Shown here: positions 5,089-28,162 of the stretch, in pieces
Layout of the letters: every line of letters starts with the position of its first letter
How positions within the stretch are numbered: position 1 is the stretch's first letter
Sequence record: MZ726796.1
DNA: 46,233 nucleotides
Direction: 5' to 3' (one strand)
Source of the DNA: Escherichia phage vB_EcoS_ASO78B
Position numbers and translations under genes: made by a program
The notes under the pieces: model-generated
Database searches by the model: none
The model's input: the letters and a program-made list of their open reading frames with translations, nothing else
Told to the model about the DNA's origin: nothing

Positions 5089-6019
5089 TGCCCGCCTTCC
5101 GCAACCGCGCATATCGCAGAGTCTGACAGACCCGTTAGGCGCTGCGACTCGCCTGTCAAAGATGGATAAGGTGATAACGCGCAAATACAAACAACTCAGG
5201 AATCGTGCGCTTGGGTTGTTCCGCACTATTCCGCATAGTCAGACTAACGCAGAATCAAGCGACATGTATTTCTATGATTTCAGTAGTGCGCGGGCAGCCA
5301 CGTTCATGGATGAGTTACAGGCGCTGATTGACGAGATTCTTCTGGAAGGTGATGATTTCGGTCACGGCAGGCTGTGGGCTAACGTGTTCATTGGTGATGC
5401 ATATCAGGCCGGCACACAGAAGGCAAACTCAGAGCTATCAAGCCTGTCTCCTGTTTATGCTGAGCAGAGGCCGATTGCCGCGATACTCTACAGTGAGCCT
5501 TATCTGAACCGGCTCCAGCTGGCTTATACGCAAGGATATTCAGACTGGCGCGGATTGAGTGATTATTCCCGTCAGCAACTGGCATCTGTCATCATGGAAG
5601 GCATTGCTCGTGGCGCAAATCCTCGTAACGTTGAAGCTGACATTGTTAAGCGTGTTGATGTGTCGCACAGCTACGCGAAGCAAATCGCACAGACGGAAAT
5701 TACCGGAACTCTGCGGCAGGCTAACAGGCGAGAAGTCATTGAGGCTCGCGAAGAGTTGGGTATTGAGACGGTGATGCTGTGGCAGTCGGCATTGATGCGT
5801 ACAACCCGTCAGACACACGCGGCAAGACATGGACGGTTTTACACGCCAGAAGAGATTGACACGTTCTATAGTGAGAATGGCAACAGATATAATTGTCACT
5901 GTGCGCAAATTCCAACACTGTTAATGGATGGCAAGCCAGTCATTCTTGAGTCATCACAGGAAAGGCTTGATAAGCAGCGTGAGGCTTGGCAATCGGCAAA
6001 CAAAAAGCCCTCTAAGTGA
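5069..6019 (+). CDS. head morphogenesis protein (Mu F / SPP1 gp7 family)
   Basis: C-terminal [17 protein letters not shown]...NCHC motif as in Phage_Mu_F domain; start overlaps portal 3' end. Confidence 0.75.
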
Positions 6020-6035
6020 GGGCTTGGTTTTATCT
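6006..6035 (+). terminator. rho-independent terminator
   Basis: hairpin AAGCCCTC-TAAGT-GAGGGCTT then GGTTTTA; stop codon lies in the loop. Confidence 0.6.
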
Positions 6036-6102
6036 TATCAGCATGAACAGAACAAATATTATTATCGCATAGCACAATATCTCTACGACGCTGAATATTG
6101 TT

Positions 6103-6726
6103 TTAATCATCCAGTTTAACGCCGGGAATCTTGCCTGCTGCGATGGCGTCGTAAACAGCCTCTGCCTCATCTGATCGATTGTGTTGGCGTTCAGCCTTCG
6201 TCAACGCACCATAAATTGCATCACAAATTCTCTCGCGCTTCTTATCTGCTTCTGTGCGGATGGGGCGAAATTTCAGCGTGCCACCATACGATGAAAATTT
6301 AACATACTGGACACCCTCAAAGGTATCGCACAGCATCACCACGCCTTGCGTCCCTACAATGTAATCAATTTTGCACTTCCACCATGTTTTCCCGGCATTG
6401 AGAGAGTATTCGCATTCGCACCCCACTTGCGGGACGCCTTCGCCGTTCCATGTTGGCTTTTGCGATGCGGCGAGTGCTGCTTTATATTGCCAATAGGTCA
6501 CTATCGACTCCCTGTGGTCGCAAGATAAAGGTATGTCCTCAATTCCATGCCAGTAATGCACAAGGCTATTCCCAGTGTGATGTTTCCATGAAAATCCATC
6601 ATAGTGTGGATTATTCGTGTCCCATACACACAGCGAACCATCATCATCTTGAGTAATTGACAGAGCATTATGAGGCCACCCGCCACGCTTAGGTAATTCT
6701 TTAACTAACAGGTCGATAAGTTTCAT
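6103..6726 (-). CDS. hypothetical protein (accessory island 1)
   Basis: 207 aa, Trp/Cys-rich; GGAGGAA RBS; last gene of a 5-gene minus-strand operon. Confidence 0.5.
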   Translation of the reverse strand: MKLIDLLVKELPKRGGWPHNALSITQDDDGSLCVWDTNNPHYDGFSWKHHTGNSLVHYWHGIEDIPLSCDHRESIVTYWQYKAALAASQKPTWNGEGVPQVGCECEYSLNAGKTWWKCKIDYIVGTQGVVMLCDTFEGVQYVKFSSYGGTLKFRPIRTEADKKRERICDAIYGALTKAERQHNRSDEAEAVYDAIAAGKIPGVKLDD

Positions 6727-6947
6727 TTTGTTCCTCCATCAGAAAATATTTCTTTATATTCACCCTCAACCTCGTACAGTTCACCCAGCTTAAATACCTC
6801 ATACGAGTTTTGACCGCCTTCGCGCCATGCGTGAACCTCATTCAGCTTTTCAGCCACCGCATTAGCCTCCTGTTCAGTTGGATAAATAGCAACAACATTT
6901 GATGAAACGCCGCATTCGATGCAACCAACATTAAATACAAGCCACAT
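6723..6947 (-). CDS. hypothetical protein
   Basis: 74 aa; stop overlaps start of downstream gene. Confidence 0.45.
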   Translation of the reverse strand: MWLVFNVGCIECGVSSNVVAIYPTEQEANAVAEKLNEVHAWREGGQNSYEVFKLGELYEVEGEYKEIFSDGGTK

Positions 6948-6949
6948 AA

Positions 6950-7213
6950 TTATTCTCCCAATGCCTTATTAACCACCGCACGCGCATTATCCGGAGCGCG
7001 ACGCTTGCTTGATGCTGTCCAGACTTTGCCGGAATGGTCGTCGTAGATTTCCAGTAGCTGCTGGAGTGCGGCGAGCATGGTCTTGTTATTGTCGTGACGA
7101 TACCCAACAGAAAACCCAAGCCAAAGCCAGTCCTTTTCTCTATCCGTCATGCCGCCAAAGTCAACAGAATCGAACCATTTGCTAAATAATTGGTGCACTT
7201 CGCGCTGCGTCAT
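6950..7213 (-). CDS. hypothetical protein
   Basis: 87 aa from ATG (MTQREV..) with GAGG RBS; track ORF extends to an upstream GTG. Confidence 0.45.
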   Translation of the reverse strand: MTQREVHQLFSKWFDSVDFGGMTDREKDWLWLGFSVGYRHDNNKTMLAALQQLLEIYDDHSGKVWTASSKRRAPDNARAVVNKALGE

Positions 7214-7221
7214 CGCCAACC

Positions 7222-7365
7222 TCACTTAATATATTCCACAATCTCGCACTCGCGCATCTGCACCAGACCAAATGGCGCAACCACTTTACCGCACGGGCGG
7301 ATTTTGATTTGCTCAAGGCTGAACACTCCGCAGCGTCCGTTTTCTTTGAATTTGACCATTACCAT
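7222..7365 (-). CDS. small hypothetical protein (47 aa)
   Basis: Hand-translated ORF below the track cutoff (MVMVKFKENGRCGVF..); GAGGAA RBS 6 nt upstream; fills the gap between neighbours. Confidence 0.3.
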   Translation of the reverse strand: MVMVKFKENGRCGVFSLEQIKIRPCGKVVAPFGLVQMRECEIVEYIK

Positions 7366-7368
7366 GAT

Positions 7369-7779
7369 TTATTCCTCAATATCTCGCCAGTCCATATTGG
7401 ACTCGTTTTGTCCGTACACCCCACCGTAAAAGCCTTCACCCGGCCATACGATTTCGCCGCCATAATATCCGTTTGAATCATTGCGATAGTCAATCACCAT
7501 GTCACCTTTGTTGGTTGTAATTTTCGCTCCGTAGTATTGAACGTAATCACAACCTGGTATATCACCCAAGTCAGGCATTGCCAAATCTTCACACCCAATA
7601 ATAGTAAATGGCAACCCTAGCGCAGGCATTTCAACTGATTCAATCCATGTATACGAGCAGCAATCAGCATCAACGCGAACAACCAGTTCCTCACCATTAT
7701 CACAAACAAAAAGCATAGCCAGCTTATCTTCTGCAATTTTCACATCAACAATTTTCTTACCAATCAGTTTGTTTTCCAT
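7369..7779 (-). CDS. hypothetical protein
   Basis: 136 aa from ATG 7779 (MENKLIGKK..) with GAGGTG RBS; Gly/Tyr-rich C-terminus. Confidence 0.5.
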   Translation of the reverse strand: MENKLIGKKIVDVKIAEDKLAMLFVCDNGEELVVRVDADCCSYTWIESVEMPALGLPFTIIGCEDLAMPDLGDIPGCDYVQYYGAKITTNKGDMVIDYRNDSNGYYGGEIVWPGEGFYGGVYGQNESNMDWRDIEE

Positions 7780-7811
7780 CTTCATCACCTCATTCGTCAC
7801 TTGATGTAGAT

Positions 7812-7840
7812 ACTATGCACCACCACTCAATCTACGTCAA
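7812..7840 (-). promoter_or_regulatory. sigma70-like promoter for accessory island 1
   Basis: minus strand reads TTGACG, 17-nt spacer, CATAGT; overlaps copies of the AATCTACRYCA motif. Confidence 0.4.
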
Positions 7841-7884
7841 TACCTGTTGTGATAGAATTAATCATTATTTGAACAGGAGGCAGA

Positions 7885-8163
7885 ATGAAACTATCGCAAC
7901 GCGGCAAAGATACGCTTGGAATCGCCGATGCCGTGGATATATCGCCTTACATCACCACTGAGACAACGCAGAGTCAGTTTGATGCGATGACAAGTCTCGC
8001 CACCGACATTGGCATTGACGCTTTCCGCAAATCAACACTTCTGAGGAAACACAACCTTCGCTGCTTCTCGTGTGCGGTTGCACATTTCATCGTGTGGGGC
8101 GAGAAGACCGACAACAAAGCAAAACGCAAAGCTGAAAAAGAGGTTTACTGGTATGGCTATTAG
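7885..8163 (+). CDS. T4/P22-type (GH24) lysozyme-like protein lacking the catalytic N-terminal region
   Basis: residues 28-75 align to the C-terminal half of P22 gp19-type lysozymes (QxQ[FY]DA..SL...IG..AF..ST.LR..NL), but about 45 aa containing the catalytic region are missing; strong AGGAGG RBS. Confidence 0.5.
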   Translation: MKLSQRGKDTLGIADAVDISPYITTETTQSQFDAMTSLATDIGIDAFRKSTLLRKHNLRCFSCAVAHFIVWGEKTDNKAKRKAEKEVYWYGY

Positions 8164-8617
8164 CAAAAACATGAAGGCATTTCTGAATATGCTGGCGTAC
8201 AGTGAGGGCACGGATAACGGGCGGCAGAAAACCAATAATCATGGATATGATGTGATTGTTGGTGGCTCACTGTTTACCGACTATTCCGATCATCCGCGCA
8301 AGCTGATTAGCCTGCCTAAGCTGGGCATCAAATCCACTGCTGCAGGGCGCTATCAGGTGCTGGCTAAGTTTTATGACGCGTATAAAAAGCAGCTGCGCCT
8401 GCCTGACTTCTCTCCCGCATCACAGGACGCTATTGCAATGCAGCTAATCCGTGAATGCAAGGCCACTGCCGACATCGAGGCAGGGCGCATTGCTGATGCA
8501 ATCCATAAATGCCGCTCCCGCTGGGCTTCATTGCCGGGTGCTGGCTATGGTCAGCATGAGCAGAAGCTGGATAAGCTGATTCAGGTATACAAGGATGCTG
8601 GTGGGGCTGTGGCATGA
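8153..8617 (+). CDS. R: endolysin, lambda R-like lytic transglycosylase
   Basis: near-colinear match to lambda R: AFLNMLAYSEGTDNGRQKT.NHGYDVIVGG.LFTDYSDHPRKL, WASLPGAGYGQ.E. Confidence 0.9.
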   Translation: MAISKNMKAFLNMLAYSEGTDNGRQKTNNHGYDVIVGGSLFTDYSDHPRKLISLPKLGIKSTAAGRYQVLAKFYDAYKKQLRLPDFSPASQDAIAMQLIRECKATADIEAGRIADAIHKCRSRWASLPGAGYGQHEQKLDKLIQVYKDAGGAVA

Positions 8618-9356: not shown

Positions 9357-9515
9357 TCACCGATTGGCATTTTCTCCACCCTCTCGCTTCTTCCACATCT
9401 GCTTTAGTTGAAAATAAGCATACGCTTCATCGCCATCTTTTGCATTGCGCTCCATTTGCTCGCACCATACCGATGGTTTTGGTGCCTCACTCTGCTGGCA
9501 ATGTTGTTGGCTCAT
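9357..9515 (-). CDS. small hypothetical protein
   Basis: 52 aa from ATG 9515 with GAGGAA RBS; Cys-containing. Confidence 0.3.
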   Translation of the reverse strand: MSQQHCQQSEAPKPSVWCEQMERNAKDGDEAYAYFQLKQMWKKREGGENANR

Positions 9516-9795
9516 CAACAGATTCCTCAACCGCAGCTTCAACGATGCGCACCAGTGAACACTCAAGGTTAGGTGCATTGTAATTGCCAGCCAGAAACAG
9601 CACGCTACCCGTGCTAATCAGCACCTGTTTCGCGCTTGCCTGCGACAGATTCTGCACGATGAATTGCGCTGTTTCGGTGCCAATTTTAAGCACTGCACTG
9701 CCGTCGCTGTTCAGTGATACCAGTTGCGCTGATGTGTCAGCAATGTTGGTGTAGTTCGTGTTTCGTTGCGCGATGGTCATGTCGCAGAATGACAT
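9487..9795 (-). CDS. hypothetical protein
   Basis: 102 aa from ATG 9795 (MSFCDMT..) with AGGAG RBS 7 nt upstream. Confidence 0.45.
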   Translation of the reverse strand: MSFCDMTIAQRNTNYTNIADTSAQLVSLNSDGSAVLKIGTETAQFIVQNLSQASAKQVLISTGSVLFLAGNYNAPNLECSLVRIVEAAVEESVDEPTTLPAE

Positions 9796-9796
9796 T

Positions 9797-10012
9797 TTAT
9801 GCTCCTGTAGTGATATGGATTTTGCCGTTTTCGCCATATGTTGCCGATTCGATTGTTGCAGTGATTGTGGATACTCCATCAAAAGATGCGCCGAGATTGA
9901 AGTTAACCACACCGGCAACCCTGCGCCCATCCTGATCGACAATCATACTTCTGCCGTTAATCTGCTCAATATGAAGATATACGGGTTCATCATTTTTCGG
10001 TGGCGACATCAT
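9797..10012 (-). CDS. hypothetical protein
   Basis: 71 aa; start overlaps upstream stop. Confidence 0.45.
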   Translation of the reverse strand: MMSPPKNDEPVYLHIEQINGRSMIVDQDGRRVAGVVNFNLGASFDGVSTITATIESATYGENGKIHITTGA

Positions 10013-10500
10013 TTAACCTCTCCATTCAGTTCTTTTACAATTAACGTTGCGTAGCCAGCAATATCTTTCCAGCTATCATCATAGTTTGGGTCGCCATTCA
10101 GGATGCGCCCAATCTTGTGCTGAATCATGTCGAGTGCCTCGTGTTGGCTTGGTGTCAGGTTGTGCCAGCCATCAACTTCGCGCATCACATCTTTCAGCTC
10201 CTGCATAATTTCAGCGCCATCTTTGAATTTGCCGTATCGACTACCGCGTTCGGTGATGAGCTGTTCCACCACATCTACTTCCTGCTCGCCAATGCAATCA
10301 TTGTGGTCTTGCTCGTCGGTAATTGGCTCGCGGCATGCAATAACAACATCCCCGCAACCCTCAATCACTTCAATGCGACCAGCATAATCTATGCTTAGAT
10401 AGAAAATCTCACCAGTACTTCCTGACTTAACTACAAGATAAGCCGTGTCATGGCCAGCAAAATCATCCTCACAGCCTTTCAGATATTTCCATTTTTTCAT
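10009..10500 (-). CDS. hypothetical protein with conserved phage C-terminal domain
   Basis: 163 aa; C-terminal RYGKF...W..L...QHEALDMI..KIGR...G....DSW.DIAGYA resembles an all-alpha phage domain (family not assigned). Confidence 0.5.
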   Translation of the reverse strand: MKKWKYLKGCEDDFAGHDTAYLVVKSGSTGEIFYLSIDYAGRIEVIEGCGDVVIACREPITDEQDHNDCIGEQEVDVVEQLITERGSRYGKFKDGAEIMQELKDVMREVDGWHNLTPSQHEALDMIQHKIGRILNGDPNYDDSWKDIAGYATLIVKELNGEVK

Positions 10501-10691
10501 TTCATCGTCACCCGGTTATTTTCATCAACATTAAAATTCTCACGAATCATCTGGTACATCTCATCTTTAGGCATATCAGCCAGTGCCACATAGCAACGGG
10601 CAAAGTAGCGAACATCACGGAGTGTCAGCGGCTGACGCTTCTCCACAATGCTGGTGATAATGTCCATCGGCTCTCGTCGTGGTCTTGGCAT
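10497..10691 (-). CDS. hypothetical protein
   Basis: 64 aa, first gene of the minus-strand island. Confidence 0.45.
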   Translation of the reverse strand: MPRPRREPMDIITSIVEKRQPLTLRDVRYFARCYVALADMPKDEMYQMIRENFNVDENNRVTMK

Positions 10692-11052: not shown

Positions 11053-11247
11053 ATGGCGCATGACGAACTGTACGAACAATCGCTAATCCAGCGACTTAAT
11101 GAAGTTGAGCGCACACGCGAATGGCTGGAATGCGAGCTGCGAGAAGTGCGCAATCGTCTGCAACGTAAGCGCAGTCAGCAGAAGGACGTCATCGACTGGT
11201 CGGGTGATACGCCTAAATTTAATAACTTAGGAGAATGGATAAAATGA
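11053..11247 (+). CDS. hypothetical protein
   Basis: 64 aa, coiled-coil-like; GGGAGA RBS. Confidence 0.45.
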   Translation: MAHDELYEQSLIQRLNEVERTREWLECELREVRNRLQRKRSQQKDVIDWSGDTPKFNNLGEWIK

Positions 11248-11465
11248 GAAAGTTCAGCACGTTAGTTGATTTGATTCTCGCTGACATCAGAGAGTCAAAC
11301 GCCAGAAACAAAAAGTCAAGAAATCAGCGGCAGGATATTACTTTCCGCACACTGCTTAAACAATCAATGCGCAACAAGAAGGAATGGAGATACAGACGCG
11401 ACCGAGTCCTGATAAGGCTGTGCAAGTTGAACATGAACAAGATACTTAAGGACATGAGCAAATGA
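11244..11465 (+). CDS. hypothetical basic protein
   Basis: 73 aa rich in R/K; AGGAGAA RBS. Confidence 0.4.
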   Translation: MRKFSTLVDLILADIRESNARNKKSRNQRQDITFRTLLKQSMRNKKEWRYRRDRVLIRLCKLNMNKILKDMSK

Positions 11466-11710
11466 CAGCGCCATATATGCCGATGATGAATGAGGAAGGA
11501 ATTTTAGAATGCCCGTTATGTCAGGCGACAATTGCTCACGCCGACAGCATTAACGGTAAATGGGTTGTTGAATGCTACGAGTGTGGATGCAGGTCTGGGG
11601 TGTACATGACAGGTAAAGGAGCCATTGAATCATGGAATACCCGCAACGGACACCTCTACACCGCAGATGACTTCAATCAAGCAGCAGAGGAGCGCGATTA
11701 TGGATTATAA
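11462..11710 (+). CDS. Lar-family restriction alleviation-like zinc-ribbon protein
   Basis: CPLC..(18)..CYECGC plus downstream GAIESWNTR, matching the Lar-family pattern (CPFCG...C..C...AI.AWNRR) as recalled; ATGA-coupled to upstream gene. Confidence 0.55.
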   Translation: MTAPYMPMMNEEGILECPLCQATIAHADSINGKWVVECYECGCRSGVYMTGKGAIESWNTRNGHLYTADDFNQAAEERDYGL

Positions 11711-17003: not shown

Positions 17004-17540
17004 CTACAGACGCATCGGCATAACAACAATCTTCGCAGTCTCGCCAGTTGGCGCACTAAGGCAGCAAGCTGCGGCATTTGTATTCCCATTCAATTCAAAC
17101 TTAACGCTACAGAATTTAGGATTAAACAGCTTCGCAGCTTTCTCGATATCCACAAGATAGCCAGCATTGAATCCGATGCAATCAGCAGCTTTCGTTTCCT
17201 TTGGTATCACGCGATCAATATCAGGGAATCGACCATCAATCTCTTCGCAGATACCAGCGCCAACCATCACGCCAGCTTCATTATGATATGTTGCAATTTT
17301 CGCCTTAGTATCAATGATTGCGCACTCATATCGCTTTGTTGGTGCCTTGCCAATCTTGATAATCACATTTTCTGTCAGCTTATTGTCATGACTGCTGCCA
17401 ATAAATGCACGATGACCGTCAGTTGATGCAATACGACCATCAGGCATAAAGCAAATACCATTCAGGTAGTAACGCACATCATTGCGAGCCTGAAATATTA
17501 ATGCTGATTCAAGTAATAGTTTGCTGATTTTTAGTTTCAT
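17004..17540 (-). CDS. truncated beta sliding-clamp (DnaN domain II-III) homolog
   Basis: DVRYYLNG, ASTDGHRA, IDGRFPD.DRVIPK and C-terminal KIVVMPMRL align to E. coli DnaN residues about 133-366; domain I absent, domain III shortened. Confidence 0.7.
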   Translation of the reverse strand: MKLKISKLLLESALIFQARNDVRYYLNGICFMPDGRIASTDGHRAFIGSSHDNKLTENVIIKIGKAPTKRYECAIIDTKAKIATYHNEAGVMVGAGICEEIDGRFPDIDRVIPKETKAADCIGFNAGYLVDIEKAAKLFNPKFCSVKFELNGNTNAAACCLSAPTGETAKIVVMPMRL

Positions 17541-17713
17541 CACTTCACCTTAATCATGTGCTGCTTTGCAACCTTCAGGCATTCTTCAAAAATGCCACCT
17601 TTCTTAGCGCTCTGATTGCGCTTGTAATACTGAATTGCCGCATCAACTGCCATCTGGTCGATGTCAGGCAGCTTGGCTCTTAATTGTTTTTCGATGAATT
17701 GTTCAGCGTTCAT
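17540..17713 (-). CDS. small hypothetical protein (57 aa)
   Basis: Hand-translated ORF (MNAEQFIEKQL..); stop overlaps the clamp-like gene ATG by 1 nt. Confidence 0.3.
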   Translation of the reverse strand: MNAEQFIEKQLRAKLPDIDQMAVDAAIQYYKRNQSAKKGGIFEECLKVAKQHMIKVK

Positions 17714-17954
17714 GATTTATCTTCACCCATCCTTTGCTTGCACCATGCGATACGATAAGTCCTTTCTTGCGCAACGCCTGAAGTCGGCGATCAAGGACTC
17801 GAAATCCCTCATGTGGTTTTGTTGCCAGCTTTTCACACTCTGCATGTATTCCGCTATGAATGCCTCCAGAGAAATGAATAGCCATGAACGTCATCGGCTC
17901 AACATAATCAAGCTCATCCATAATCATTGCGTCGAGTTCTTCATACTTGCTCAT
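17703..17954 (-). CDS. hypothetical protein
   Basis: 83 aa; C-terminal RVLDRRLQALRKKGLI may be a winged-helix DNA-binding element. Confidence 0.45.
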   Translation of the reverse strand: MSKYEELDAMIMDELDYVEPMTFMAIHFSGGIHSGIHAECEKLATKPHEGFRVLDRRLQALRKKGLIVSHGASKGWVKINHER

Positions 17955-18763
17955 CGCATCTTCTCCAGAATTGCCATGACCTCATGAATGTCAGCGACAG
18001 GAATCTGAATAAATTCCTCATCCTCTGCCACCACATGACCAGCAGGTAGAATTACATGGTCGGCTTGCTTCAACAGTTCAATCAGGCGGTCCACTGGCTT
18101 AATCTTCTTTGACTTCAGCACCTTCGCTGTGACCTTATCCTTGCCTTGCGCTTTAGCCTCTTCGACTGCCTCGTTGATAACTTTAACCGCATCATCACCA
18201 TGCTCGCGCGTTACCGCTACGGCGTTTGCATAGCTGATTTGCCCTGCGCTGATGCGAGCCTTCACTTCTGCTGGCACATCACCCAGTGACAGATGCATTT
18301 GCACGTCAGATACTGAACGACCTACCTTCTTGGCGATCTCTTCATTCGTCCAGCCAAAGCCTTTCAGTCTCGTATAAGCCTTCGCGCGCTCAAACGGGTC
18401 AAGTTGCTTTCCCTGACTGGATGAAACCATGAAGGCGATTTTATCTGCTTCGTCTCCGGTAAAATCCTTACACTCAATACGAACTATTGGTGCACCTCGT
18501 TCAATGGCACGCAATGCGCCGAGATAGCGATGCTGACCATCAAGAATGCGGATTCCCTTCTCGTCTGGAATGACTGTTAATGCTGGCAGTGGCTGACCTG
18601 ATTCCCAGCACTGCGCGAAATACTCCACATGCTGCTCATCTGCTTCACGGATGTTGTATCCTGGTTCCAGATAGATTTGCTCAACTGGCACTAGATAGGT
18701 TTTGTTAACAGCGATGCCGTTGCGCGTTTCTTTGTCTGAATAGATTTTGCTTAGTGTTTTCAT
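17951..18763 (-). CDS. ParB-like nuclease domain protein
   Basis: ParB/Srx-type motif IRILDGQHRYLGA in N-terminal half; 270 aa. Confidence 0.7.
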   Translation of the reverse strand: MKTLSKIYSDKETRNGIAVNKTYLVPVEQIYLEPGYNIREADEQHVEYFAQCWESGQPLPALTVIPDEKGIRILDGQHRYLGALRAIERGAPIVRIECKDFTGDEADKIAFMVSSSQGKQLDPFERAKAYTRLKGFGWTNEEIAKKVGRSVSDVQMHLSLGDVPAEVKARISAGQISYANAVAVTREHGDDAVKVINEAVEEAKAQGKDKVTAKVLKSKKIKPVDRLIELLKQADHVILPAGHVVAEDEEFIQIPVADIHEVMAILEKMR

Positions 18764-19107
18764 TGTTTCTTTCCTAATGCTTTCTTGATAGATTCTTCAG
18801 CCAACAGCAATTCTTCTGGGTATTGCTCATTCCAGTTTTGTTTGTATGCCTTGCTAAGCATTTTTTGCAGAGCTTCAAGCAACTCAGGTGCTGCTGCCAT
18901 TAAATTAAAGTCATGTTCAACAGATGAATCAATTTCCCATCGCACTCCATTAAATTTGGCTCCCTTGTTTGAATAAGCAATATTGCGAGAATCATCCCTG
19001 TGACATCCTGGAGTGTCATCAATGCAACTGGCTGGGTAAATTGCTGCGCAACCTCCACGGATGTCTGCAACCCAAGGCCGTTTCGTACCTTTGAATTCAT
19101 CTTTCAT
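18760..19107 (-). CDS. hypothetical protein
   Basis: 115 aa, first gene of the operon. Confidence 0.45.
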   Translation of the reverse strand: MKDEFKGTKRPWVADIRGGCAAIYPASCIDDTPGCHRDDSRNIAYSNKGAKFNGVRWEIDSSVEHDFNLMAAAPELLEALQKMLSKAYKQNWNEQYPEELLLAEESIKKALGKKQ

Positions 19108-21927: not shown

Positions 21928-22003
21928 TGGCACACCATGCAGGATTCGAACCTGCAACCAATAGCTTAGAAGGCTACTGCTCTGTCCGTTGAGCTAATGG
22001 TGT
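21928..22003 (-). tRNA. tRNA-Arg (anticodon UCU)
   Basis: 76-nt cloverleaf read by hand: 7-bp acceptor stem ACACCAT/ATGGTGT, D-arm GCTC-AACGGACA-GAGC, anticodon loop CTTCTAA, T-arm GCAGG-TTCGAAT-CCTGC, encoded CCA. Confidence 0.8.
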
Positions 22004-22009
22004 TTGATT

Positions 22010-22097
22010 TGGCGGATAGTACAGGATTCGAACCTGTGAACCGTTTCCAGTTTATCGGTTAGCAACCGACTGCTTTCGGCCTCTCAGCCAACTATCC
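22010..22097 (-). tRNA. tRNA-Ser (anticodon GCU), type II
   Basis: 88 nt with long variable arm; acceptor GGATAGT/ACTATCC, anticodon loop TTGCTAA, T-arm ACAGG-TTCGAAT-CCTGT, encoded CCA. Confidence 0.75.
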
Positions 22098-23371: not shown

Positions 23372-23397
23372 AAAGCCCCGAAAGGGGCTTTGTTTAT
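23372..23397. terminator. bidirectional terminator
   Basis: AAAGCCCC-GAAA-GGGGCTTT flanked by A-run and T-rich tract. Confidence 0.7.
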
Positions 23398-23591
23398 TCT
23401 TGTGGAGGTCCCGGTAGCGGCATCCAGTGGTCGAAGGTGGTCTGTGCTAATTCATCATATTCGTTGTACCAGTCACTCCATAACTCCCCATCCCAACAAA
23501 AAACATTTTTCTGCACTACCTCATTCACGCATACCAAAACAGCGACGTTCGTAGGAGGCATCATCTCACTACACTTAATCCACTGGCTCAT
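23394..23591 (-). CDS. DUF551-like protein
   Basis: 65 aa: MSQWIKCSEMMP..VAVLV...WDGELW...HWMPLPGPP matches the DUF551 pattern as recalled. Confidence 0.55.
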   Translation of the reverse strand: MSQWIKCSEMMPPTNVAVLVCVNEVVQKNVFCWDGELWSDWYNEYDELAQTTFDHWMPLPGPPQE

Positions 23592-23962
23592 AATCCTTCC
23601 TCATTCATCTTCAGGAAAACAATCATGGCGGCGCGGAGTGCTCCTCGTGATGATATATCTCCAATAGCGCTGCATGAACTAAAGATAAAAAATCCATTTT
23701 TATATTTTTTATCATAAACAAGCGAATCGGCATCCCACTTACAAATCGAATGATGAAGGGATATTTTACTATCAACTATGATAGGCCATGCATCTTCTGG
23801 ATTATTGCATGGGTCAAATTCAATCTCGTTAAAGTCGGCATAAGAACCCGTATCACACTCGACAAATCTAACCGGCTCGCCATCATCATTAAATGACACG
23901 CCAATAATTAGCGCTACCGCCTTATTAATCTCAAAATCACTCATCTCTTCATAATTTTTCAT
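23588..23962 (-). CDS. hypothetical protein (NinX/DUF2591-like?)
   Basis: 124 aa; MSDFEINKAVA...NNPEDAWPII resembles NinX-type proteins; weak. Confidence 0.4.
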   Translation of the reverse strand: MKNYEEMSDFEINKAVALIIGVSFNDDGEPVRFVECDTGSYADFNEIEFDPCNNPEDAWPIIVDSKISLHHSICKWDADSLVYDKKYKNGFFIFSSCSAIGDISSRGALRAAMIVFLKMNEEGL

Positions 23963-24102
23963 ATCACCTTATCCTCATCAAAAATCACGCCAATCACACG
24001 AAGCAGGTCTTTCGCCATGCGCTCTGCTTCTTCGTAGTCATAACCTGCATCGACATACAAATCAGTGTAGAAAGTCAGGTCGGCTTTTGTTTGTTCGTTC
24101 AT
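23959..24102 (-). CDS. small acidic hypothetical protein (47 aa)
   Basis: Hand-translated; ATGA overlaps with both neighbours. Confidence 0.3.
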   Translation of the reverse strand: MNEQTKADLTFYTDLYVDAGYDYEEAERMAKDLLRVIGVIFDEDKVI

Positions 24103-24293
24103 TTCTTGTCGTCGCTCTTAACTAATGCCCAAACCAGTGCGGCGACCCAACCAATAAAACTCCATCCAACGAGAATATTCAGTACGCAGATTGCAGTCCT
24201 GTTTACGTGCTTGCGTTGAAGAGCCACAAAAGATGGCAGAAGGTACACAAATATCACCAAACCAACAAAAAACAACAAAATAACAACATCCAT
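24099..24293 (-). CDS. superinfection-immunity (Imm-family)-like small membrane protein
   Basis: 64 aa, two TMDs; YLLPSFVALQRKH.NR.AI.VLNILVGWSFIGWVAALVWAL matches the Imm-family signature as recalled. Confidence 0.55.
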   Translation of the reverse strand: MDVVILLFFVGLVIFVYLLPSFVALQRKHVNRTAICVLNILVGWSFIGWVAALVWALVKSDDKK

Positions 24294-24328
24294 GACTCAC
24301 CTCATTCATCACTCGTTTCGATGACTTG

Positions 24329-27486: not shown

Positions 27487-27514
27487 AAAAAAGCCCCTCA
27501 CGGGGCTTTTTTTA
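27485..27514. terminator. bidirectional terminator
   Basis: A8-GCCCC-TCAC-GGGGC-T7 between tape measure stop and the convergent KilA-N gene stop. Confidence 0.75.
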
Positions 27515-28162
27515 AATCTTATCAGCGCATTTACGTACTACCCTCGGTATCGTTTCTTTCAGTTCATCCCATGAGTTGACCGCTTCCATATCCAGAAGCG
27601 TGACAAGAGACTTCTGGATGTCACTGCGTAACTGGTTAGTTTTTGCGTCCTGAGAGTCCCATGTGTCAAATCCGGTAACTTCACGGATATCTATCGACTC
27701 CTTTACTGCCTTTGCCACCTGAATGAAATGACCACTATGACCAATCCTGCCCTCTGTGCGTTCAAGCATTCTGCTGACGGCAGCATTAAGTTCCACGAAG
27801 CTTACCGCACCAATATTTCGCAATTCAACCTGCCTCTGCGTAATGAATCTGTCGATGACGAGGAAATGGAAATATGTGCTGTATTGCTCTGCTATATATA
27901 CAGCCAGATGCAAGCAAGCAAAAGTGGAACCATTTCTACCTCGTGTTGATTTTATTGCGCTATCGATACCAAGCTGCTTTTCGCACTCAGCCTTGAAATC
28001 CTTAAACGCATCAGTTGCCATTACCTGTCGTATTTCTCTCGTCCCCATCCCATTATCCAGTCGCCAGCGATTCATCTGGTTAACAAGCTCATTAACGTTA
28101 ATAAAATTTTCACGGTCGAAAGTGATCTCTCCGTACGGGAACTCTAATGTTTGCAGTTTCAT
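27512..28162 (-). CDS. KilA-N domain protein
   Basis: 216 aa; N-terminal region with INVNEL..W and IKSTRGRNGSTFACLHLAVYIAEQYSTYFHFLVIDRF fits the KilA-N pattern (RGG..GTW.HP.LA...A.WLSP.F.V.V). Confidence 0.5.
   Translation of the reverse strand: MKLQTLEFPYGEITFDRENFINVNELVNQMNRWRLDNGMGTREIRQVMATDAFKDFKAECEKQLGIDSAIKSTRGRNGSTFACLHLAVYIAEQYSTYFHFLVIDRFITQRQVELRNIGAVSFVELNAAVSRMLERTEGRIGHSGHFIQVAKAVKESIDIREVTGFDTWDSQDAKTNQLRSDIQKSLVTLLDMEAVNSWDELKETIPRVVRKCADKI

What the first reader, a model, noticed from the sequence alone, without database searches (positions are those of the whole stretch)
6103..7840. Strand-inverted five-gene island of unknown function between head genes and lysis cassette
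Five coupled minus-strand genes (136, 47, 87, 74 and 207 aa) with their own promoter (TTGACG-N17-CATAGT) interrupt the + strand block. None shows a motif I recognise; the 207-aa protein is unusually Trp/Cys/His-rich. Placement and autonomy suggest horizontally acquired accessory cargo, where anti-defence or host-takeover functions usually sit.
Basis: inference. Interest (0 to 1): 0.55.

Follow-up and report, generated by a model that had tools for sequence, protein, structure and literature searches.

The report
Swappable accessory-gene operon in a coliphage
The five backward-facing genes are real and form a self-contained, dispensable operon at a fixed "plug-in" site of this phage family, where genes are swapped between phages. 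What the genes do is unknown, although two of them point to early host or DNA-related roles rather than to building the virus particle.

Summary
The window is Escherichia phage vB_EcoS_ASO78B, a Skatevirus-like siphovirus. Five tightly packed minus-strand genes (136, 47, 87, 74 and 207 aa) each have a Shine-Dalgarno site and show dN/dS of 0.03-0.31. They lie between a promoter conserved in 31 relatives and a bidirectional terminator.

The block is not a recent foreign island. Its GC content matches the genome, and nearly every relative has a cassette at this site. Its content is mosaic: the 47-aa gene and the 207-aa family are common, the 74-aa gene is rare, and the 136-aa gene (Pfam DUF7448) fills a variable promoter-proximal slot. 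One relative has lost the whole cassette and three have lost most of it, so it is not needed for morphogenesis.

Homologues of the 207-aa protein sit next to xis/int at the end of the recombination-gene operon of temperate phages. The protein is built of independently swapped modules, including a hypervariable SH3/Tudor-like barrel. DUF7448 is a uniformly acidic all-beta protein found from phages to giant viruses, usually in early or replication operons. Its best fold match is a DNase-toxin immunity protein.

An anti-defence role is plausible but unproven. [quoted passage not shown] I classify it as a new member of a known kind, of moderate-to-low interest.

The parts
7812..7840 (-). Sigma-70-type promoter of the cassette: -35 TTGACG (7840-7835), 17-nt spacer, -10 CATAGT (7817-7812)
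   Evidence: 9/12 consensus match. The -35 is invariant and the -10 nearly invariant in 31 relatives. It is kept even in L098, where the cassette is deleted.
7369..7779 (-). Gene 1, 136 aa (ORF extends to a GTG at 7800). DUF7448 protein: acidic (net charge -16, pI 4.1) and all-beta. It occupies the variable promoter-proximal slot 7385-7800.
7222..7365 (-). Gene 2, 47 aa, basic. The most conserved cassette member (PHROG 21280, function unknown).
   Evidence: Found in 145 phage records, mostly above 90% identity. Present in 26 of 31 cassettes. Retained in the deletion variants L109 and L111. dN/dS 0.03-0.15.
6950..7213 (-). Gene 3, 87 aa (91 aa from the GTG at 7225). The C-terminal ~42 aa are a conserved module and the N-terminal half is swapped between phages. 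Carries a precomputed PF27050 label.
   Evidence: 79 phage records, only 15 of them full-length. PF27050 label on homologues. Weak match to PHROG 1273. dN/dS 0.13-0.29.
6723..6947 (-). Gene 4, 74 aa, acidic, with a CxxC motif. A rare occupant of a second variable slot.
   Evidence: Only 10 phage records. Present in 8 of 31 cassettes. No Pfam or PHROG match. dN/dS 0.09-0.31.
6103..6726 (-). Gene 5, 207 aa. A modular protein: N-terminal domain (1-92), conserved junction WNGEGxPxVGCECE, hypervariable SH3/Tudor-like barrel (~107-152), conserved FRPIRTEA linker, variable helix, and an invariant tail AIAAGKIPGVKL.
6005..6025 (.). Bidirectional intrinsic terminator hairpin (AAGCCCTC-loop-GAGGGCTT) with T-runs on both strands. 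It overlaps the last codons of the MuF head-morphogenesis gene.
   Evidence: An equivalent terminator is annotated in phage Skate. Retained in L098.
7850..7858 (+). Extended -10 element TGATAGAAT of the divergent lysis operon, back-to-back with and partly overlapping the cassette promoter.
   Evidence: Read from the sequence. Nearly invariant in 31 relatives. Assigning it as a promoter is inference.

Best explanation
**What it is.** The block is a dispensable, self-contained operon: a host sigma-70 promoter, five translationally coupled small soluble proteins, and a bidirectional terminator. It sits at a fixed 'plug-in' site between the MuF head gene and the lysis genes of Skatevirus-like siphophages.

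**How it changes.** The conserved flanks (promoter/lysis side and terminator/MuF side), together with conserved gene-to-gene and within-gene junctions, let homologous recombination between co-infecting phages swap whole genes and even domains. Each phage therefore carries its own combination.

**What the products most likely do (inferred).** They probably act in the cytoplasm on host or competitor factors during lytic growth, not in virion assembly.
- The 136-aa DUF7448 protein is most likely an acidic protein inhibitor that occupies the basic DNA-binding surface of a nuclease or another DNA enzyme, in the manner of an immunity protein.
- The 207-aa protein is most likely an adaptor. Its conserved ends would hold a constant partner, and its hypervariable SH3/Tudor-like barrel and helix would recognise a variable target.
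- I have no specific function to propose for the 47-, 87- and 74-aa proteins.

**Shown versus inferred.**
- Shown: the anatomy, selection, mosaicism, dispensability and genomic contexts.
- Inferred: expression timing, the targets and any anti-defence activity.
For: **Operon anatomy.**

**Real genes.** dN/dS is 0.03-0.31 for all five.

**Dispensable.**
- L098 keeps only the promoter, the terminator and a 40-nt remnant.
- L109, L111 and L113 lack the 207-aa gene apart from its 3' end, and L109 and L111 show a clean deletion from 6155 to 7177.

**Mosaic.**
- At most 63% of the region aligns to any one phage.
- Record counts for the five genes are 205, 10, 79, 145 and 25.
- The slot architecture is shown.
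- A metagenomic relative has the order DUF7448-47-42-74-210-77.

**207-aa family.**
- In temperate phages it sits just upstream of the integrase, on the same strand as the upstream RecT/YqaJ recombination genes (L019).
- A BLAST-detectable relative of the L019 integrase follows the homologue in 23 of the roughly 50 loci outside the phage family, and a relative of its Xis in 14.
- Its modules recombine independently. For example, P0028 compared with the window protein is 82% identical in the N domain, 10% in the middle and 100% in the helix, while P0054 is 29%, 96% and 100%.
- The middle module folds as a small beta-barrel.

**DUF7448.**
- The model is confident (pLDDT 93).
- Net charge is -11 to -20 in every member checked, including a mycobacteriophage homologue at 31% identity.
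- It sits in early, replication or recombination operons: after the DNA polymerase in Astro, between the primase-helicase and the polymerase in a contig with T7-type replication genes, upstream of ERF/YqaJ in a temperate phage, near SSB, and divergent from a helicase operon in HU1.

**Soluble.** No protein has a clear transmembrane segment; the 74-aa N-terminus is borderline.
Against: - No experiment or homology ties any of the five proteins to a known function. Pfam, PHROGs, NCBIfam, PADLOC and PDB sequence searches gave only 'unknown' or nothing.
- PIM7 has a helix that the all-beta DUF7448 model lacks, and no toxin gene neighbours DUF7448 in any of the 10 contexts examined.
- DUF7448 occurs in giant viruses of amoebae, which argues against a target specific to bacteria.
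[quoted passage not shown] Bas81 carries homologues of the 47-, 87-, 74- and 207-aa genes.
- Early expression is assumed from the promoter type and from prophage contexts. It was not measured.
- The N-terminal domain of the 207-aa model is unreliable (pLDDT below 50 for residues 42-72).
Confidence: 0.55

Rival explanations
1. The cassette encodes phage DNA-metabolism accessories rather than counter-defence. DUF7448 would be a helper of replication or recombination, for example a polymerase- or helicase-associated factor, and the 207-aa protein a partner of the recombination or excision machinery.
For: - DUF7448 lies directly next to DNA polymerase genes in two unrelated phage types.
- It also lies near SSB, ERF/YqaJ and helicase genes.
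- Homologues of the 207-aa protein follow RecT/YqaJ and precede xis/int.
- DUF7448 is present in giant viruses, which fits a universal DNA-related role.
Against: - In the window, in Sasha, in L055 and in L128 the gene lies among head or portal genes, far from replication genes.
- The cassette is deleted in natural relatives.
- Within the family, DUF7448 turned up only in the window and some uncultured relatives, so it cannot be a core replication factor.
- hhalign of the 207-aa tail against Xis gives 1% probability.
Confidence: 0.15
2. The cassette serves competition between phages or superinfection exclusion. The hypervariable modules of the 207-aa protein would track variable proteins of rival phages rather than host defences.
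For: - Module-level hypervariability is flanked by conserved junctions.
- The family is very diverse, with 1029 clusters at 50% identity.
- It is shared among co-occurring Salmonella, Escherichia and Klebsiella phages and prophages.
- The DUF7448 homologue at 65% identity is in AVIO78A, a phage that lyses the same O78 strains (PMC10612097).
Against: - There are no membrane segments of the kind typical of entry-exclusion proteins.
- In temperate phages the gene sits with the recombination and xis/int genes rather than beside the repressor. From general knowledge of lambdoid phages I would expect that operon to be silent in lysogens, which would give no prophage-encoded exclusion; I did not test this.
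- There is no direct evidence.
Confidence: 0.12
3. The cassette encodes morphogenesis or lysis-timing accessories, given its position between the head genes (portal, MuF) and the lysis cassette, with which it shares a divergent promoter region.
For: - The cassette is adjacent to MuF and shares an 84-bp control region with the lysis operon.
- DUF7448 also lies next to portal or MuF in Sasha and in L128.
Against: - Complete or near-complete natural deletions exist in otherwise intact relatives.
- Gene content varies between phages whose head and lysis genes are 90-97% identical.
- Homologues occur in early operons of temperate phages.
- No protein has a clear transmembrane segment.
Confidence: 0.08
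4. The genes are selfish or neutral ORFan passengers that persist at a recombination hot spot without benefit to the phage.
For: - All functions are unknown.
- The cassette is frequently lost and replaced.
- Homing-endonuclease genes are inserted at or in the cassette in some relatives (Sf11; a 368-aa DUF723 gene in L121).
Against: - All five genes are under purifying selection.
- The 47-aa protein is 91-98% identical in most relatives.
- DUF7448 keeps about 60% identity and its acidity across phages from widely different sources.
Confidence: 0.1

Closest known systems
Accessory early genes of lambdoid phages (the lambda exo-xis region and the P22 ea genes, recalled from knowledge)
   Same: Small, non-essential, highly mosaic genes of mostly unknown function, arranged in one operon. 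Full-length homologues of the 207-aa protein (33-42% identity) occupy exactly such a place in prophages: last gene before xis/int, downstream of RecT/YqaJ and of Ead/Ea22-like and DUF3850 genes.
   Different: Here the genes are in a virulent siphovirus, between head and lysis genes, with their own promoter. None of the five matches Ead_Ea22 or any named exo-xis protein.
Morons and 'accessory regions' of phage genomes (an autonomous promoter-gene-terminator unit inserted between conserved genes)
   Same: The unit has its own conserved promoter and terminator, lies on the opposite strand, shows presence/absence and content polymorphism between otherwise collinear relatives, and has gene-sized insertion slots. 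The DUF7448 gene fills 7385-7800 exactly.
   Different: There is no compositional difference from the genome. The site itself is ancestral to the whole phage group and is not a recent insertion.
PIM7, immunity protein of the T7SS LXG DNase toxin PT7 (PDB 8owu_E)
Acidic DNA-mimic inhibitors of phages (T7 Ocr, T7 gp5.9, ArdA; recalled from knowledge)
   Same: Small, strongly acidic, early-expressed and non-essential. T7 gp5.9 is encoded among the replication genes, as DUF7448 is in several phages.
   Different: No fold or sequence similarity to any of them was found. No activity has been tested.
Small beta-barrel (SH3/Tudor/KOW) interaction domains, for example the UvrD C-terminal Tudor domain, the CarD RNAP-interacting domain and Spt5 KOW
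   Different: The fold is generic. Identity is 8-15%, and no binding partner can be deduced. The module is replaced outright between close relatives.

Membership tests
Pfam DUF7448 (PF24240) | Score above the curated gathering threshold of the family HMM | tested here: met
   74.4 bits against a cutoff of 27, E 1.1e-20, covering profile positions 2-103 of 104. The conserved GDCC and R-x3-NGYYGG core is shared with Providencia and mycobacteriophage members. BFVD hits are labelled DUF7448.
Moron / autonomous accessory unit | Own promoter and terminator flanking the inserted genes | tested here: met
   The promoter at 7840-7812 is conserved in 31 relatives. Terminator hairpin at 6005-6025. No transcript data are available.
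Moron / autonomous accessory unit | Present in some genomes and absent from otherwise collinear relatives | tested here: met
   L098 lacks the cassette. L109, L111 and L113 have lost most of it. Gene content differs among 31 cassettes.
Moron / autonomous accessory unit | Nucleotide composition distinct from the surrounding genome | tested here: not met
   GC is 0.455-0.463 across 6001-8000, within the range of the rest of the window. Only the skew changes, as expected for the opposite strand.
Lambdoid early-operon accessory genes next to xis/int (207-aa protein) | Homologues located between the recombination genes and xis/int of temperate phages | tested here: met
   L019 has the order RecT, YqaJ, Ead/Ea22-like, DUF3850, an 84-aa ORF, the homologue, Xis (HTH_17), integrase. 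A detectable relative of that integrase lies downstream of the homologue in 23 loci, and of that Xis in 14.
Polymorphic-toxin immunity proteins (PIM7-like) for DUF7448 | Fold similarity to a solved immunity protein | tested here: inconclusive
Polymorphic-toxin immunity proteins (PIM7-like) for DUF7448 | Encoded immediately next to its cognate toxin gene | tested here: not met
   None of the 10 contexts examined has a toxin-domain neighbour.
DNA-mimic anti-restriction proteins (Ocr/ArdA/gp5.9-like) for DUF7448 | Strongly acidic surface charge conserved across the family | tested here: met
   Net charge -11 to -20 and pI 4.05-4.57 in 26 close and 3 distant members. Charge alone does not establish mimicry.
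DNA-mimic anti-restriction proteins (Ocr/ArdA/gp5.9-like) for DUF7448 | Sequence or fold relationship to a known mimic, or demonstrated inhibition of a nuclease | tested here: not met
Known defence-system proteins (PADLOC) and NCBIfam named families | Match to a curated model | tested here: not met
   No family matched any of the five proteins or two distant homologues.
Excisionase / MerR-type HTH_17 (C-terminal tail of the 207-aa protein) | Profile similarity to the Xis HTH domain | tested here: not met
   hhalign of the 95-sequence family profile against neighbouring Xis proteins gave 1% probability over 17 columns. None of the 95 members hits HTH_17 in Pfam.
Ead/Ea22-like proteins (87-aa protein; one GenBank record calls a homologue 'Ead protein') | Match to Pfam Ead_Ea22 or to an Ead_Ea22-positive protein | tested here: not met
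   No Pfam hit. No BLASTP alignment to the Ead_Ea22-positive protein of L019.
SH3/Tudor-like small beta-barrel fold (middle module of the 207-aa protein) | Five-stranded barrel superposable on solved members | tested here: met

The most novel reading that the evidence does not exclude
DUF7448 is an unrecognised pan-viral family (phages of Gram-negative, Gram-positive and actinobacterial hosts, and giant viruses of amoebae) of acidic beta-proteins that block a DNA-acting enzyme of the host, such as a nuclease used in defence. Separately, the 207-aa family is a polymorphic, module-swapping early effector whose hypervariable SH3/Tudor-like barrel tracks a fast-evolving host or rival-phage target. 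Together they would make this site a counter-defence 'plug-in' locus.
Probability: 0.2. Interest if true: 0.65.

Novelty: new member of a known kind. Interest (0 to 1): 0.35.

Why it matters
Variable cassettes bounded by conserved genes are where many phage counter-defence and host-takeover genes have been found. This one is well delimited: a conserved promoter, a terminator, two variable slots, and natural deletion controls.

It contains two widespread families with no known function:
- DUF7448 stands out for its reach from phages to giant viruses, its invariant NGYYGG/GDCC core and its uniform acidity.
- The 207-aa family stands out for domain-level shuffling and for its fixed place next to xis/int in temperate phages.

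Both are cheap to test. If either proved to be an inhibitor of a defence nuclease, or a variable-target effector, it would add a new family to the anti-defence catalogue. If not, the locus is still a clear example of modular phage evolution.

Tried and rejected
**Sequence searches that gave nothing useful.**
- Pfam, NCBIfam and PADLOC found no named function for any of the five proteins. PHROGs returned only 'unknown function' families.
- PDB sequence and profile searches had no significant hit.
- Scanning 95 diverse members of the 207-aa family individually against Pfam gave only scattered single hits.
- Longer fusion-type relatives of the 207-aa protein carry no recognisable extra domain.

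**Leads tested and rejected.**
- The tail 'AIAAGKIPGVKL' resembling the recognition helix and wing of Xis/HTH_17: hhalign probability 1%.
- The 87-aa protein as an Ead/Ea22 relative: no alignment.
- The conserved 84-aa ORF that precedes prophage homologues as a relative of the 74- or 87-aa proteins: no alignment.
- 'Guilt by slot': ten alternative occupants of the variable slots in relatives all have unknown function.
- The Bas81 68-aa occupant reminded me of DUF2829/Tad2, but Pfam shows no such hit even at E up to 10.
- The W/C/H richness as a metal site: these Cys and His residues are not conserved in the wider family.

**Literature and tools.**
- A full-text search for DUF7448 found no papers.
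- The afdb50 fold library was unavailable.
Full report
**Identity of the window.** The 207-aa and 136-aa products are 100% identical to ASO78B_011 and ASO78B_015 of Escherichia phage vB_EcoS_ASO78B, on a contig of 46,233 bp, the length of the window. This is a lytic siphovirus isolated on avian pathogenic E. coli O78 (PMC10612097). Its relatives are swi2, Skate, Sa179lw, Akira, KFS-SE2, VSt472 and BASEL phages Bas77-81. The BASEL authors treat that group as the Skatevirus cluster (PMC11990801).

**Observation.**
- The sequence shows tight packing: an ATGA overlap and gaps of 2, 8 and 3 nt. Every start has a Shine-Dalgarno site.
- All five are under purifying selection, with dN/dS of 0.03-0.31 against homologues from fetched loci.
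- The proposed promoter TTGACG-N17-CATAGT (7840-7812) is only a 9/12 match. The region has 8 such matches where 4.0 +/- 1.7 are expected, so the match alone proves little.
- In an alignment of the intergenic region from 31 relatives, the -35 is invariant and the -10 nearly so.
- The same 84-bp region carries a conserved extended -10 (TGATAGAAT, 7850-7858) facing the lysis genes. The two units are therefore divergent and back-to-back.
- A bidirectional terminator hairpin at 6005-6025 overlaps the end of the MuF gene.
- The 207-aa protein has 11.1% W+C+H, against 5.4 +/- 2.8% for the window's long ORFs. These residues are not conserved in the wider family.

**Not a recent island, but a conserved variable site.**
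- GC content is unremarkable.
- I fetched 31 relatives anchored on the MuF protein, independently of the cassette.
  - 27 have a cassette with a recognisable 207-aa homologue (full-length in 24, partial in 3).
  - Three (L109, L111 = VSt472, L113) retain only the 47-aa gene plus a fused remnant. L109 and L111 show a clean deletion from window 6155 to 7177.
  - One (L098) has lost everything except the promoter, the terminator and a 40-nt remnant.
- Clustering the cassette ORFs of 31 loci gives this layout: promoter, variable slot, 47-aa gene (26/31), 87-aa family (25/31; only its C-terminal ~42 aa are constant), second variable slot (74-aa gene in 8/31), 207-aa family, sometimes one more small gene, terminator.
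- L109 joins window positions 7384 and 7801 directly, so the DUF7448 gene is a gene-sized insert in the first slot.
- Across 50,697 phage records the five genes occur in 205, 10, 79, 145 and 25 records.
- DUF7448 is in none of the isolated family members. Its nearest isolated homologues (about 64-65% identity) are in Sashavirus phages and in Pseudomonas phage HU1. One of the Sashavirus phages is AVIO78A, which infects the same O78 strains.
- Uncultured relatives do carry it (80-99% identity on 46-48 kb contigs). One has the order DUF7448-47-42-74-210-77.

**The 207-aa protein.**
- The family is large (1029 clusters at 50% identity), and its two halves also occur as separate proteins.
- It has no Pfam, NCBIfam, PADLOC or PDB relative.
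- Alignment of close relatives shows conserved junctions (WNGEGLPPVGCECE, FRPLRTEAERKR, IYDAIAAGKIPGVKLDD). These separate an N-terminal domain, a middle segment and a helix that are exchanged independently. Mean pairwise identity is 79% for the N domain, 25% for the middle and 41% for the helix, with all combinations observed.
- About half of the 80 loci found with this protein are not from the phage family at all. In a Cronobacter prophage the homologue is the last gene before Xis and integrase, downstream of RecT, YqaJ, an Ead/Ea22-like gene and DUF3850.
- A BLAST-detectable relative of that integrase follows the homologue in 23 loci, and of that Xis in 14.
- This points to lytic growth or induction rather than virion assembly, assuming the operon behaves like the lambdoid early-left operon.

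**DUF7448.**
- The model is confident (pLDDT 93) and all-beta.
- Among viral models, the family spans Providencia, Enterococcus, Bacillus, Pseudomonas jumbo and Gordonia phages, and Mimivirus, Tupanvirus, Hokovirus and Pithovirus.
- The core motifs GDCC and R-x3-NGYYGG survive to 31% identity.
- Every member checked is strongly acidic, with net charge -11 to -20.
- Its genomic contexts are mostly early or DNA-related:
  - first gene of small-gene operons in Sasha and HU1;
  - after the DNA polymerase in mycobacteriophage Astro;
  - between the primase-helicase and the polymerase in a contig with T7-type replication genes;
  - upstream of ERF/YqaJ in a temperate phage;
  - near SSB.
- It also lies next to portal or MuF in Sasha and in L128.
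- In L055, both it and a 207-aa homologue are opposite-strand single-gene inserts among structural genes.
- No toxin gene is ever adjacent.
- My preferred reading is an acidic protein inhibitor of a DNA-acting enzyme. This is inference.

[quoted passage not shown] Bas81 carries homologues of the 47-, 87-, 74- and 207-aa genes. A Lar-like restriction-alleviation gene lies elsewhere in the window (11462-11710).

**Verdict.** This is a new member of a known kind (a moron-like accessory cassette). It contains two widespread uncharacterised families that are reasonable candidates for experimental work.

Noticed in passing
window 7885-8163 (+), overlapping 8072-8617 (+): The first gene of the lysis operon is a 92-aa protein that matches only the C-terminal half of the T4-type Phage_lysozyme profile (positions 55-112 of 125). 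It overlaps the start of the ORF of the endolysin proper (annotated as a lambda/P2-type transglycosylase in Skate). It is conserved at 84-92% identity in relatives, whereas Bas81 has a single full T4-type endolysin instead. It could be a fragment kept for a new role.
   Followed up: partly
window 11462-11710 (+): An 82-aa protein matches Pfam Lar_restr_allev, the restriction alleviation protein Lar (36.6 bits against a cutoff of 28.6). It lies in another small-gene cluster next to a DUF7301 protein at 11235-11465. An anti-restriction-like gene therefore sits outside the finding.
   Followed up: partly
window 7806-7835: A perfect 6-bp inverted repeat, GTAGAT (7806-7811) and ATCTAC (7830-7835), brackets the -10 and reaches the -35 of the cassette promoter. 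It is conserved in most of the 31 relatives. It could be an operator shared by the divergent cassette and lysis promoters, or it could be chance.
   Followed up: no
DUF7448 relatives (BFVD hits): The DUF7448 fold and family occur in giant viruses of amoebae (Mimivirus, Tupanvirus, Hokovirus, Pithovirus) as well as in phages of very different hosts. This is an unusually wide spread for a small protein of unknown function.
   Followed up: partly
L019 3712-3966 and equivalents in 14 prophage loci: An 84-aa ORF directly upstream of the prophage homologues of the 207-aa protein is 85-95% identical between loci whose 207-aa homologues are only about 40% identical to one another. It is unrelated to the window's 74- and 87-aa proteins. 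It may be a constant partner of a variable protein.
   Followed up: partly
P0081 (290 aa, one 3.7-kb metagenome contig): One protein combines the PF27050 domain (the 87-aa family) with a full 207-aa homologue. It is either a real gene fusion, hinting that the two proteins work together, or an assembly or frameshift artefact.
   Followed up: no
L121 5567-6673; Shigella phage Sf11 (H48); several Klebsiella phages: Extra DNA is inserted at or within the cassette in some relatives. L121 has a 368-aa DUF723 gene between MuF and the cassette. In Sf11 the 207-aa match is split in two with an annotated HNH homing endonuclease, and it is also split into two pieces in several Klebsiella phages.
   Followed up: no
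window 9487-10691 (-), 17004-19107 (-), 23394-24312 (-), 27512-28162 (-): The genome has several other minus-strand small-gene blocks among plus-strand blocks, seen in the GC skew and the ORF map. One includes a DUF6378 protein at 10009-10500. The studied cassette is one of several such units.
   Followed up: partly
window 21928-22097 (-): Two adjacent tRNA genes, tRNA-Arg(TCT) and tRNA-Ser(GCT). This agrees with the two tRNAs reported for ASO78B.
   Followed up: yes
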